Below, in pieces: positions 4,601 to 7,600 of a stretch of 64,000 nt of DNA. Both the position numbers and the translations under genes were made by a program. The DNA lies in the NCBI RefSeq assembly GCF_009914755.1, contig NC_060943.1; one strand, written 5' to 3'. Position 1 is the stretch's first letter, and every line of letters starts with the position of its first letter. This DNA is from the human T2T-CHM13v2.0 reference genome, Homo sapiens. The notes beneath the pieces are model-generated. The model saw only the letters and a program-made list of their open reading frames with translations, ran no database searches and had not been told where the DNA came from.

Positions 4601-7600
4601 CCAGGCCCGCACCTCAGACAGGACCATCCTGGCTGCTGCTGGAGTAGGGGTGCAGTGGGGAGCTGGTGATGACAGAGGGAGGATGAGGATGGGTCTGGTA
4701 GTAGAGGCCAAGAGGAAGGGTGGATGGAGAAGGGTCACCCAGCACAGGGGATGGTGACGCAATGCATGTGGGTAGGAAGGACAGGGAAGAGGCGAGGGTG
4801 ATGCTGACAGTGACCCTGAGGGCTGTATCTTGGGCCAACTGGGAGCAAAGTGGGGCTGTCCTGAAAGGGGAACTGAGACCTTGGAACTGAGACCTTCCTG
4901 ACCAACCATGGGCCTCCCAAACCCCACCTTATTCGGCCTGCCCCAGGCCTCCCTTACCTATCCTGGGTCCCCAGCGCAAGACCAGCCACCAAAACGTAGG
5001 TGATGAAAGCCATTGCTGTGGGAGACAGACACACAGACACTGGTCACCAGAGGAAGAACTGCCCTGGGCCTCCAGGCACCCACACACCCGCTCCATATAG
5101 GCCCGGAAGAGAGAGGAGGGTGCAGGGTAGGGGGAGGGTGAAACCTGGAATGTAGAGGTCCGGGGCATTGACGTCAAAGCGGGGGGCCACCGGGGTGTCC
5201 TGTTGGTACTGCACTTCCCAGTCCTGCGGGGATGGGGAGACGGGCAGGACCCTCAGAGCCAGGCCCCTCCCACCCTGCTACAGGCCCTCCTCCCTCGAGG
5301 CGAATCTCCCGGCTCCACCATGCACCTGCCCCCACCCCTGAGCCCCCCACAGGCCCACTGCAGACCCACATTCCCCTGGGGGTGCTGACCTGGTGTAGGT
5401 AGGGGAAGAACAGCAGGCCCAGCTTTCTGCCCACATACATGGTGTCCACAGCAAAGTAATACTTGAGCTTGGTGATGGGGATGAAGCGGTCGATCTGGGG
5501 AGGCAGAGCTCAAGTCTGAAGCCCTGTGGCCCCGTGCATCCCCCCACTCCCACCAGCCCCGCCCACTCACGTTCTTATCCACCAGCTCCTTGCCCTGCGC
5601 GGCCAGGCTGCTCCCATAGGCCATGGCCATGTTGGACACCGGGTCAGCCAGGAAGGCTGCATGGGGCGTGGGAGAGGCTGCAGGATAACTCAGGCCACCA
5701 GGTGCCCGCTGGGCCCCATAGCCCCGGCTCTGGGCTGAACTTGTGTCATCGAAAAGCTGGTGGGGGTCGGCCATGCCCGGCTGGGACACAGGGATCCTCC
5801 GCTTCGAGGCTGCAAGGGAAGAGAGTGAGAAGGAGCTGGGGACCCAGGATAGGTAAGGGAGACCTGGCGAACCTCATTCATCCCACAGCTCTGCCTCCTG
5901 CTGCAGAGGAGGGTGGTGTCACCATTAGAGACACTGGCTTTGATGTCAGATGGACTGGCAGGTGCAAGCTCTGCCATTCATCCACCAACCCACCCATCTA
6001 GCCAACTATCCATCCACTGATACATTCATCTATGCATCCATTCATCTACCCACCCATCCATCCACCTATCCATCTACCCACCCTCCCACTCACCCACCCA
6101 TCCATCCATCTATCCATCTAACCATCCATCCATCCATCCATTCATCCATCCACCCATCCATCCATCCAGCCATCCATCCACCCACCCATCTAGCCAACTA
6201 TCCATCCACTGATGCATTCATCTGTCCATCCATTCATCCATCCACCCATCCATCCATCCACCCTCCCACCCATCAATCCATCCATTCATCCATCCACCCA
6301 CCCATCTATCCATCTATCCATCTACCCACCCACCCATCAATCCATCCATTCATCCATCCACCCATCCATCCATCCATCCATCCACCTATCCAACCATCCA
6401 TCCATCCACCACCCATCTAGCCAACTATCCATCTAATGATGCATCCACCCACCCACCCACCCATCCATCCATCCACCTACCCATTCATCCATCCACCCAC
6501 CCACCCATCCATCCACCCATCCACCCACCTATCTAGCCAACTATCCATCCACTGATGCATTTATCTTTCCATCTATCCATCCATCCATCCACTCACCAAG
6601 CTATCTATCCATCCACCAACTCATTCATCTATCCACCCATCTATCATCCATCCATCCATCATCATCCATCCATCTAACCATCCATTCACCCACCCACCCA
6701 TCCACTTATCATCCATCCATCCAGATATCAATGATGATGATTATCTCAAAAGCTACTATGTGCGAGAGGAAGGGGGGGCTATTGGGCACAAAATCCTGTA
6801 CCAAGCCTTTTACACAAGGCCGCTGTCCATATCTCCTATGCTCCCCCTCAATGACTTGGCTCCAGCCACCTGCGCCTCCCAATGCTCACTGAATGCACCA
6901 GGAAGGTGCCTGCCTCAAGGCCGCTGCACCAGCTGTGCCTCTGCTTGGAACGCTCTTCCCCCAACATCCTCAGAGCTCCCTCCTCTCCTCCTCAAGGGCT
7001 TTGTTCAGTGAGGCCTTCCCCAGCCATCCTGTCTACAACCGTACCTCCCTTGGTGGCACTCCCCACCCCCTGCCCTGCTTCACTGATATCCATAGAACTC
7101 GGCACTAGCTGACATGCTGGCTGTCTTATTTTGTTCACTGTCTCCCCCACTCAACTGTGAGTCCCCCAAGGTGGGGATCTTGATCTCGTTCACAGCTGAG
7201 TCCCCAGCCCCTTGCACAGGGTTAGAGTAGGCACTTGATAAAAACCTGATCAATGAATAAAGGCAGCCTGGGCAACATGGCGAGACCCCATCTCTACAAA
7301 ATATAGAAAGATTAGCTAGGTGTGGTGGTTCACGCCTATGGTCCCAGCTACTCGGGAGGCCAAGGTGGGAGGATCGCTTCAGCCTGGGAGACAAAGGTTG
7401 CAGTGAGCCGAGACTGCACCACTGCACTCCAGCCTGGGCAACACAGTGAGACCCTGTCTCAAAAAAAAAAAACAAAAAACAAAAAACAGAATAAATGACC
7501 ACTCCCAATTTACAGGTGTGGAAACCAAGGCCCAGACAGCTAAAATGACTTGTGCAAAGGGCCAAACTGAGTGAGTGGCAGAGCAGGAGTCCAGCCCTGC

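What the first reader, a model, noticed from the sequence alone, without database searches (positions are those of the whole stretch)
4943..5867. Built-in antisense to a splice donor: 33-bp duplex joining the YIF1B exon 5 donor to the intron just upstream of exon 2
Seen: in the YIF1B pre-mRNA, intron 1 at -58 to -26 from exon 2 reads 5'-CCAGGUCUCCCUUACCUAUCCUGGGUCCCCAGC-3'. It is complementary to 5'-GCUGGGGACCCAGGAUAG|GUAAGGGAGGCCUGG-3', the last 18 nt of exon 5 plus the first 15 nt of intron 5. There are 27 contiguous Watson-Crick pairs, one DNA mismatch (4948/5862), then 5 more pairs. That mismatch is a G-U wobble in the YIF1B-sense RNA but C-A on the other strand. Neither arm looks like a transposon and one arm is coding. 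A chance 27-mer match in 64 kb is of order 1e-7 (rough estimate). The intronic arm contains CUUACCU, the same sequence the U1 snRNA 5' end uses to read donors, and it lies next to the exon 2 branch/pyrimidine region. Inference: the helix could (a) mask the exon 5 donor; (b) loop out exons 2-5 (481 nt, frameshifting, so an NMD switch); (c) place the exon 5 donor beside the exon 2 acceptor for Alu-independent back-splicing to a 481-nt circle; or (d) make intron 5 splicing wait for removal of the long intron 1. I do not know of a description of this element.
Basis: partly seen in the sequence, partly recalled or inferred. Interest (0 to 1): 0.85.

Follow-up and report, generated by a model that had tools for sequence, protein, structure and literature searches.

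The report
Inverted copy pairs with YIF1B donor
A 33-base inverted copy of the YIF1B exon 5 splice-donor junction sits just upstream of exon 2, so the unspliced RNA could fold into a very stable helix that hides that donor; whether cells use it or merely tolerate it is untested.

Summary
Arms 4943-4975 and 5835-5867 are 32/33 complementary: 27 perfect pairs, one mismatch that is G-U only in YIF1B-sense RNA, then 5 pairs. The sequence occurs nowhere else in the human reference. Neither arm lies in a masked repeat. Similarity stops sharply at the arm ends.

The predicted helix is -74.7 kcal/mol, with pair probability at least 0.97 in contexts up to 2.8 kb. It raises the cost of freeing the exon 5 donor from 8.2 to 24.6 kcal/mol, against -10.2 for U1 pairing.

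The exonic arm encodes residues shared with the paralogue YIF1A, which lacks the repeat. So the intronic arm is the copy.

My best reading is a one-step DNA-level inverted micro-duplication. It creates a donor-masking long-range helix of unproven, probably weak or unselected, effect. All 7 RefSeq transcripts splice exons 2-5 normally. No paper I could search describes a YIF1B circle, editing site or exon skipping here.

Conservation could not be tested because no non-human mammalian genomes were on hand. One mismatch does not date the copy beyond "probably younger than about 90-150 My if neutral". This is a new instance of a known kind, and cleanly testable.

The parts
5835..5867 (-). Intronic arm, in intron 1 at -58 to -26 from the exon 2 acceptor. 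It is the derived, inverted copy. In YIF1B-sense RNA it is pyrimidine-rich and carries the 7-base motif shared with the U1 snRNA 5' end.
   Evidence: (I1). Unique in the genome. Not masked. U1 motif checked against L024.
4943..4975 (-). Donor arm, the source of the copy: the last 18 nt of exon 5 (4958-4975) plus the first 15 nt of intron 5 (4943-4957).
   Evidence: The exonic part encodes ...LGTQDR, which aligns with YIF1A ...LGIQKR, so this arm is the ancestral one.
4952..4960 (-). Exon 5 5' splice site core (-3 to +6), in the middle of the helix.
   Evidence: U1(1-11) pairing is -10.2 kcal/mol with 8 bp. Opening cost is 24.6 kcal/mol with the arm and 8.2 without it.
5810..5834 (-). The last 25 nt of intron 1, between the helix and exon 2: a pyrimidine tract, the only upstream A at -17 (5826, in a CTCAC context, the likely branch point) and the acceptor AG.
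   Evidence: Read directly. The branch-point assignment is inference from the yUnAy rule (recalled); it was not measured.
4976..5834 (-). The 859-nt loop closed by the helix: the end of intron 1, exons 2, 3 and 4, introns 2-4 (76, 166 and 129 nt) and most of exon 5.
5571..5809 (-). Exon 2 (239 nt), the first exon inside the loop.
4958..5015 (-). Exon 5 (58 nt), the last exon inside the loop. Its 3' 18 nt are part of the helix.

Best explanation
A single DNA-level event copied 33 bp spanning the exon 5 / intron 5 junction of YIF1B, in inverted orientation, into intron 1, 26 nt upstream of exon 2. Likely mechanisms are a replication template switch or templated repair synthesis.

As a by-product, the pre-mRNA carries a built-in antisense to its own exon 5 donor. 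The intronic arm is transcribed first. About 860 nt later the donor arm emerges and can zip into a 33-bp helix. That helix closes a loop holding exons 2-5, buries the exon 5 donor, and abuts the exon 2 branch/pyrimidine region.

I think the helix forms in only a fraction of transcripts, because it competes with co-transcriptional U1 binding, RNA-binding proteins and helicases. Where it does form, it acts as a brake on productive splicing: delayed or failed use of the exon 5 donor, or joining of exon 1 to exon 6, which shifts the frame.

I think it is a young or tolerated accident rather than an evolved switch.

Shown: the repeat, its uniqueness, its sharp edges, the direction of copying, and the thermodynamics. 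Inferred: the mutational mechanism, formation in cells, and any effect on splicing.
For: The repeat:
- 33 nt, 32/33 complementary, 859 nt apart.
- 0 of 100 shuffles match.
- Only 2 places genome-wide at up to 3 mismatches.
- Not in masked repeats.

One discrete copy:
- In-register identity of the 50-nt flanks is 22% and 28%, and local alignment of +/-200 nt recovers only the 33-mer.

Source is genomic DNA (or unspliced RNA), not mRNA:
- The copy crosses the exon-intron junction.

Polarity:
- The exonic arm encodes residues aligned with the paralogue YIF1A ([20 protein letters not shown] against [20 protein letters not shown]).
- YIF1A has no comparable inverted repeat. Its best pairing at that donor is 16 nt at 88%, with a 3' region.

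Rarity:
- In 264 kb of genic chr19 (203 kb unmasked) the only unmasked, non-low-complexity perfect inverted repeats within 5 kb were two 16-mers and this 27-mer.
- Among 41 annotated donors in the window, best partners within +/-1.5 kb score -29.7 to -52.3 kcal/mol for 39 of them. The two outliers are this one (-79.1) and a repeat-derived exon (-81.2).

Thermodynamics.

Precedent that one template switch can create a perfect stem: PMC8794818 (passages) and PMC5453318 (passages).

Against a strong evolved switch:
- 7 of 7 RefSeq transcripts include exons 2-5.
- Genome-wide, complementary regions are depleted at active splice sites (PMC8052449 passages).
Against: - Age and conservation are unknown. 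I had no non-human mammalian DNA, so 'young/unselected' is a prior, not a result.
- One difference in 33 is compatible with any neutral age up to roughly 65 My, and becomes unlikely only beyond about 90-150 My (with assumed rates).
- The single difference is a G-U in the sense RNA, which is what selection for pairing would allow. It is also about a 1-in-2 outcome for a random transition.
- The 859-bp source-target distance lies outside the +/-100-200 bp searched in the published short-range template-switch scans. The event is therefore not a typical member of that class.
- A 33-bp perfect helix less than 1 kb apart is the kind of duplex that does form in cells for inverted repeats (the basis of PMC4201285), so a real effect on splicing is plausible.
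- RefSeq rarely lists NMD-bound or circular products, so their absence there is weak evidence.
Confidence: 0.5

Rival explanations
1. It is a selected long-range regulatory helix. Pairing masks the exon 5 donor and loops out exons 2-5. A tunable fraction of transcripts then join exon 1 to exon 6 (a 481-nt deletion and frameshift, so the product is degraded), or must wait for intron 1 removal before intron 5 can be spliced. Either way YIF1B output is set post-transcriptionally.
For: - The helix is extremely stable and dominant in every context folded.
- It adds about 16 kcal/mol to donor opening, more than U1 pairing gives back.
- It brackets the compact exon 2-5 cluster exactly, and 481 is 1 mod 3.
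- The only mismatch keeps pairing in the sense RNA.
- Looped-out exons show lower inclusion genome-wide (PMC8052449 and PMC10573301 passages).
- A mammalian precedent exists: a newly introduced intronic element masks a 5' splice site and creates exon skipping, HNRNPA1 CE6 (PMC12046027 passage).
Against: - 0 of 7 RefSeq transcripts show the predicted products.
- The papers found for YIF1B with exon skipping, intron retention or nonsense-mediated decay showed nothing relevant in the listings or the passages I opened.
- There is no evidence of conservation, and the paralogue lacks the repeat.
- The exon 5 donor is strong, with 8 bp to U1. Structures that regulate exons tend to accompany weak sites.
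- Complementary regions are depleted at active splice sites.
Confidence: 0.2
2. It promotes back-splicing. Pairing brings the exon 5 donor next to the exon 2 acceptor and yields a repeat-independent 481-nt circular RNA of exons 2-5.
For: - Inverted repeats of about 30-40 nt beside the splice sites are sufficient for circularisation. The minimal upstream intron in that work (87 nt: a 40-nt repeat plus branch point and 3' splice site) resembles the geometry here, where the arm ends at -26 (PMC4201285 passages).
- When the donor core is forced open, the flanking half-helices of 15 bp (-34.0 kcal/mol) and 9 bp (-15.2 kcal/mol) still form in the constrained fold. A U1-bound donor held next to the acceptor is therefore conceivable.
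Against: [quoted passage not shown]
- The same paper reports that strengthening the hairpin can inhibit circularisation, and that G-U wobbles can abolish it.
- No paper that I opened mentions a YIF1B circle. The two searches found 4 papers in all. I opened two, and both list only linear rodent Yif1b as a differentially expressed gene. The other two (PMC6886296 and the rat paper's duplicate listing) I saw as listings only.
- circRNA tables usually sit in supplements, which were closed.
Confidence: 0.1
3. It is an ADAR substrate. The intronic arm serves as an editing-site complementary sequence, so adenosines in the last codons of exon 5 or in the donor itself are edited. This would recode the protein or weaken the donor.
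For: - A 33-bp nearly perfect exon-intron duplex is the classical architecture for site-selective editing (recalled knowledge).
- Complementary regions are enriched in A-to-I sites (PMC8052449 passages).
- The exonic arm holds adenosines in the codons for T, Q, D and R.
Against: - The single paper holding YIF1B together with 'RNA editing' is irrelevant.
- No editing database was available.
- All adenosines are in A-U pairs, with no A-C mismatch.
Confidence: 0.07
4. It is a chance match, a dispersed repeat, or decayed remains of a larger inverted duplication.
For: None found.
Against: - Expected 27-mers by chance are about 1e-7, and 0 of 100 shuffles match.
- There are only two genomic copies, both unmasked.
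- The flanks are at random-level identity.
Confidence: 0.01

Closest known systems
HNRNPA1 exon 7B / CE6 duplex, an intronic element that sequesters a 5' splice site
   Same: An intronic sequence complementary to a 5' splice-site region masks it. According to PMC12046027 (passage) the element was introduced in the mammalian lineage and created exon skipping. That is a lineage-specific birth of a donor-masking helix.
   Different: - CE6 lies downstream of the exon it controls, and the exon is alternative. Here the complement lies upstream, four exons away, and exon 5 is constitutive in 7 of 7 RefSeq transcripts.
- I could not read the original paper (Blanchette and Chabot 1997). It is not held, and I saw it only in a reference list.
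- I did not locate the CE6 duplex in my quick scan of the HNRNPA1 locus.
Pairs of complementary regions (PCCRs) and RIC-seq-derived long-range pre-mRNA structures (PMC8052449, PMC10691357, PMC10573301)
   Same: - Long-range intramolecular pairing near splice sites that loops out exons.
- The energy here is far beyond their most stable class, which is below -30 kcal/mol, against -74.7.
   Different: - Their catalogue requires both arms in vertebrate-conserved elements and reaches only 10 nt into exons. This pair would be truncated or missed.
- YIF1B occurs 0 times in the three main texts. The supplements and track hub were not visible to me.
- Such regions are generally depleted at active splice sites, which makes this case atypical.
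Template-switch mutations that create inverted repeats or hairpins in one step (PMC5453318, PMC8794818)
   Same: A reverse-complement copy of nearby sequence with sharp edges, giving a perfect stem that point mutations could not plausibly build.
   Different: - Published scans look within +/-100-200 bp. Here source and target are 859 bp apart.
- The ancestral state is not available, so the event itself is not demonstrated.
Inverted-repeat-driven exon circularisation (PMC4201285)
   Same: An arm length of 30-40 nt is sufficient there, and the upstream arm sits close to the branch point and acceptor.
   Different: The downstream arm covers the donor instead of lying beside it, and no circle is documented.

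Membership tests
Template-switch-born inverted repeat (four-point model) | Reverse-complement copy of a nearby sequence on the same chromosome | tested here: met
   32/33, inverted; no other copy in the genome.
Template-switch-born inverted repeat (four-point model) | Discrete event: similarity ends abruptly, with no decayed extended homology | tested here: met
   flanks are 22% and 28% identical in register, and local alignment returns only the 33-mer.
Template-switch-born inverted repeat (four-point model) | Short range (source and target within about 100-200 bp, as searched in the published scans) | tested here: not met
   859 bp between the arms, against the search range quoted. A longer-range templated event is therefore implied.
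Template-switch-born inverted repeat (four-point model) | Ancestral or outgroup sequence lacks the copy, and the change appears as one cluster | not testable with these tools
Functional long-range pre-mRNA structure (PCCR type) | Stable complementarity (free energy of -15 kcal/mol or lower) within one pre-mRNA | tested here: met
   -74.7 kcal/mol, pair probability at least 0.97, present in both MFE and centroid folds.
Functional long-range pre-mRNA structure (PCCR type) | Both arms conserved, with compensatory substitutions | not testable with these tools
   No orthologous DNA. The human paralogue YIF1A lacks it, so it does not predate the YIF1A/YIF1B split.
Functional long-range pre-mRNA structure (PCCR type) | Associated alternative processing of the enclosed exons or masked site | tested here: not met
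   0 of 7 RefSeq transcripts skip exon 5 or exons 2-5. This is a weak test, because unproductive isoforms are rarely annotated.
Functional long-range pre-mRNA structure (PCCR type) | Duplex seen in cells (proximity ligation, probing, editing) | not testable with these tools
   No read data. YIF1B is absent from the main texts of PMC8052449, PMC10691357 and PMC10573301. Supplements were closed.
Inverted-repeat-driven back-splicing | Complementary arms of about 30-40 nt in the introns flanking the circularised exons, leaving the splice sites free | tested here: not met
   The upstream arm fits, lying in the intron and ending at -26. The downstream arm covers the 5' splice site, with 18 nt of exon and 15 nt of intron. 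Opening the donor costs 24.6 kcal/mol.
Inverted-repeat-driven back-splicing | A back-splice junction is observed | not testable with these tools
   No RNA-seq data. The two literature searches found 4 papers; the two I opened do not report a YIF1B circle, the other two I saw as listings only.
5' splice-site-sequestering duplex (HNRNPA1 CE6 type) | An intronic element base-pairs across the 5' splice site | tested here: met
   (predicted only, not observed in cells).
5' splice-site-sequestering duplex (HNRNPA1 CE6 type) | Reduced U1 binding and skipping of the affected exon | not testable with these tools
   Needs binding or splicing assays. Exon 5 is present in 7 of 7 RefSeq transcripts.
ADAR editing site with intronic complementary sequence | An exon-intron duplex of about 20 bp or more containing the target adenosine | tested here: met
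   A 33-bp duplex with 18 exonic nt containing adenosines.
ADAR editing site with intronic complementary sequence | A-to-I change observed in RNA | not testable with these tools
   No editing database or reads. The one paper found is irrelevant.

The most novel reading that the evidence does not exclude
A helix born in a single mutational step in the primate lineage now works as a kinetic gate in an essential trafficking gene. While intron 1 is still attached, its 3' end holds the exon 5 donor in a 33-bp duplex.

Under this reading, intron 5 cannot be spliced until intron 1 has gone. Transcripts that lose the race are diverted to an exon 1-exon 6 frameshifted product or, with U1 wedged between the two half-helices, to a repeat-independent 481-nt circle.

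This would be a natural, datable example of a new splicing-order or output control arising from one templated insertion.
Probability: 0.15. Interest if true: 0.7.

Novelty: new member of a known kind. Interest (0 to 1): 0.45.

Why it matters
Long-range pairing that hides splice sites is known, but most catalogued cases are conserved, imperfect and far weaker. This one is a unique-sequence, near-perfect 33-bp antisense to a constitutive, strong donor in a broadly used gene.

If it turns out to be harmless, it gives a natural measure of how well co-transcriptional U1 binding and helicases protect a donor from a -75 kcal/mol competitor about 860 nt away. If it turns out to be active, it shows how one templated insertion can create splicing regulation at a stroke, and it gives an obvious oligonucleotide target for raising or lowering YIF1B output.

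Either answer needs only public alignments and RNA data plus a four-construct minigene.

Tried and rejected
Ideas tested and dropped:
- Dispersed repeat or transposon origin. Rejected: only 2 genomic places, and neither arm is masked.
- Decayed larger inverted duplication. Rejected.
- Ancient feature shared with the paralogue. Rejected: the YIF1A locus L003 has no comparable repeat. 48 pairs were found and the 25 longest shown; the best at its exon 5 donor is 16 nt at 88%, to a 3' region.
- Known RNA family. One sub-threshold hit only (H19_2, 15.9 bits against a gathering score of 50, E 0.6, at 4596-4655, outside both arms).
- Unusual stability of the whole 965-nt region. It is not unusual: z = 0.42, and 12 of 20 shuffles fold at least as well. 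Only the closing helix is special.

Work that fell short:
- Background density. I planned 160 tiles of 10 kb but only 20 could be fetched. The estimate therefore rests on 264 kb and bounds the density only loosely.
- Positive control. I tried to find the published HNRNPA1 CE6 / 5' splice-site duplex in L025. Gapless repeats and a scan of 9 donor-like sites (best energies -20.4 to -34.9 kcal/mol) did not clearly show it. My motif may have missed that donor. I dropped it and use those 9 values only as an informal null.
- Dating from the single mismatch is uninformative up to about 65 My. The rates used there are assumed from memory.

Literature:
- For most hits I saw only the search listing, and opened passages for some. 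Nothing I saw describes this element. Supplementary tables (PCCR and PHRIC catalogues, circRNA lists, and the variant table of PMC13613964) were closed and may bear on this.

Statements from memory, not from a call:
- ADAR neighbour preferences.
- The U2 anchoring region upstream of the branch point.
- Elongation and splicing times.
- Substitution rates.
- The idea that 33 bp is too short for efficient gene conversion.
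Full report
**1. The observation**

Reading the minus strand of 4880-5940 and running the repeat finder (pair I1) confirms a 33-nt inverted repeat. Its arms are 4943-4975 and 5835-5867, 97% complementary and 859 nt apart.

My own scan gives the perfect run as 4949-4975 / 5835-5861, which is 27 bp. The mismatch is 4948/5862, and five more pairs follow. In YIF1B-sense RNA the mismatch is G-U; in the opposite RNA it is C/A.

The exon positions come from the RefSeq select transcript NM_001039672.3:
- Exon 2 is 5571-5809.
- Exon 3 is 5390-5494.
- Exon 4 is 5145-5223.
- Exon 5 is 4958-5015.

The intronic arm therefore spans -58 to -26 from the exon 2 acceptor. The other arm is the last 18 nt of exon 5 plus the first 15 nt of intron 5. 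Exons 2-5 sum to 481 nt, which shifts the frame.

The 33-mer has 2 matches in the window at up to 3 mismatches, and 0 of 100 dinucleotide shuffles give any. The chance expectation for a perfect 27-mer is about 1e-7.

**2. It is not a repeat family**

At up to 3 mismatches the 27-mer occurs exactly twice in the 3.1-Gb reference, and those two places are the arms (matches in closed regions would not be shown). Neither arm lies in a masked repeat. The nearest masked blocks are 2833-3150 and 6034-6194.

Rfam gives only one sub-threshold hit, which lies outside the arms.

**3. How unusual it is**

I scanned the window plus 20 randomly drawn genic 10-kb tiles of chr19: 264 kb in total, 203 kb unmasked. 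The only perfect inverted repeats within 5 kb with both arms unmasked and not low-complexity were two 16-mers and this 27-mer. I had planned 160 tiles, but only 20 could be fetched, so the density is loosely bounded.

For each of the 41 annotated donors in the window I took the best 44-nt partner within +/-1.5 kb:
- 39 donors scored -29.7 to -52.3 kcal/mol.
- This donor scored -79.1.
- An alternative exon embedded in a masked repeat, whose partner is an inverted repeat copy, scored -81.2.

**4. Origin and polarity**

Similarity stops at the arm ends. The in-register flanks are 22% and 28% identical, and a local alignment of +/-200 nt returns only the 33-mer. This is therefore one short discrete copy, or a sharply delimited selected core. 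It is not the remnant of a larger duplication.

The copy crosses an exon-intron junction, so the template was genomic DNA or unspliced RNA, not mRNA.

The exonic arm encodes ...LGTQDR, which aligns with ...LGIQKR of the paralogue YIF1A. The YIF1A locus has no comparable repeat. The exon 5 junction is therefore the source, and the intronic arm is the derived copy, made after the YIF1A/YIF1B split.

A single replication template switch can create a perfect stem (PMC8794818 and PMC5453318, passages). However, the published human scans search only +/-100-200 bp. An 859-bp jump is a longer-range event of the same general type. The exact mechanism is inferred.

**5. Age**

One difference in 33 is not a clock. 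With 33-48 freely evolving sites and assumed rates of 0.0006-0.0015 per site per My (recalled, not from a tool), the probability of at most one difference is:

| Age | P(at most 1 difference) |
|---|---|
| 30 My | 0.36-0.88 |
| 65 My | 0.05-0.63 |
| 150 My | 0.00-0.20 |

The arms are either younger than roughly the mammalian radiation or held by selection.

I could not decide between these. No non-human mammalian genome is reachable with these tools, and whether the arm is fixed in humans is also not shown.

**6. What the RNA would do**

The duplex is -74.7 kcal/mol in the sense RNA and -70.2 in the antisense RNA. It closes the domain in both the MFE and centroid folds of a 965-nt stretch. Every pair has probability at least 0.97 in 965-, 1601- and 2801-nt contexts.

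The region as a whole is not unusually stable: z = 0.42, with 12 of 20 shuffles folding at least as well.

Freeing the donor core (-3 to +6) costs 24.6 kcal/mol. With the intronic arm blocked it costs 8.2. Pairing with the first 11 nt of U1, taken from a U1 gene of this genome, gives -10.2 kcal/mol over 8 bp. At equilibrium the arm therefore wins.

This follows automatically from being the complement of a near-consensus donor.

With the donor core forced open, the flanking half-helices still form:
- 15 bp at -34.0 kcal/mol.
- 9 bp at -15.2 kcal/mol.

**7. Local anatomy at exon 2 (read)**

Downstream of the arm, the only adenosines are at -17 (in a CTCAC context) and at -2. The branch point that serves the annotated acceptor is therefore most likely -17, nine nt from the helix end.

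The arm itself brought in a branch-point-like CTTAC (A at -45) and an AG at -28/-27. Together these form a cryptic 3' splice-site constellation that no RefSeq transcript uses.

A helix ending at -26 would sit on the stretch upstream of the branch point that U2 snRNP contacts. That point is recalled knowledge and was not tested.

**8. Weighing the four proposed functions**

(a) Donor masking is supported thermodynamically.

(b) Looping out exons 2-5 is coherent with genome-wide trends. Looped-out exons are less included (PMC8052449 and PMC10573301 passages).

(d) Ordering also needs the helix to be actively unwound after intron 1 is released, because 33 bp will not melt by itself (inference).

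(c) Back-splicing fits the arm length and the upstream geometry of the minimal ZKSCAN1 system. There, however, the downstream repeat lies beside an essential 5' splice site, not over it. Over-stable hairpins and G-U wobbles can also inhibit circularisation (PMC4201285 passages). It would work only with U1 wedged between the half-helices.

Several points count against any strong effect:
- 7 of 7 RefSeq transcripts carry exons 2-5.
- The donor is strong.
- Complementary regions are depleted at active splice sites.
- Nothing I read points to this element. The YIF1B searches found 4 papers for circRNA/circular RNA, 1 for RNA editing, 3 for intron retention, 1 for exon skipping and 3 for nonsense-mediated decay. 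I opened passages of four of these papers and saw the rest as listings only.

The one androgen study concerns alternative first exons. The details of a YIF1B RNA variant in PMC13613964 are in a supplement that I could not open.

**9. Verdict**

The best-supported account is a one-step inverted micro-duplication of the exon 5 donor junction into intron 1. It gives the pre-mRNA a built-in antisense to that donor.

I judge that it is a tolerated or mildly braking accident (confidence about 0.5). A selected regulatory helix comes second (about 0.2), followed by a circle-promoting role (about 0.1) and an editing role (about 0.07). These roles could co-exist.

The closest precedent is the mammal-specific HNRNPA1 CE6 element, which masks the exon 7B donor (PMC12046027 passage). 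The differences here are upstream placement, a four-exon span and a constitutive exon.

I file it as a new member of a known kind: a long-range pre-mRNA helix over a splice site. Primate and mammal alignments, followed by a compensatory-mutation minigene, would settle it.

Noticed in passing
window 3080-3156 and about 2134-2177 (minus strand): The alternative YIF1B exon 3080-3156 is used only in NM_001145463.2 and lies inside masked repeat 2833-3150. Its donor region pairs at -81.2 kcal/mol with sequence inside masked repeat 2091-2418. This looks like an exonised repeat with an inverted partner downstream, a repeat-based counterpart of the finding within the same gene.
   Followed up: partly
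window 5835-5867 (minus strand), positions -45 and -28/-27 from exon 2: The inserted arm carries a branch-point-like CTTAC and, 17-18 nt downstream, a CCCCAG. Together these form a potential cryptic 3' splice site 26 nt upstream of the real one. If used, it would shift the frame. No RefSeq transcript uses it. The helix would hide it.
   Followed up: partly
window 5958-6300: A tandem array with an 8-nt period (22 register copies of a 163-nt reference at 63-75% identity), just upstream of the intronic arm and partly masked at 6034-6414. Repetitive, structure-prone DNA next to the target site could be relevant to a replication template switch.
   Followed up: no
window 4869-4896: A perfect 14-nt tandem duplication in intron 5, 47 nt downstream of the donor arm in RNA sense (D3). 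It is a second small templated rearrangement in the same neighbourhood.
   Followed up: no
window 4943-4975 and 5835-5867: Each arm contains its own 5-bp mini-palindrome (CCAGG ... CCTGG, 14 nt apart). Each arm can therefore form a small local hairpin before the partner arm is available.
   Followed up: no
L025 (HNRNPA1) 1296-1326 / 2127-2157: A 31-nt, 71% complementary pair whose core is a 9-nt complement of a donor-like GGTAAGTTT, 800 nt upstream of it. It is probably chance-level. The published CE6 duplex was not recognised in my scans.
   Followed up: partly
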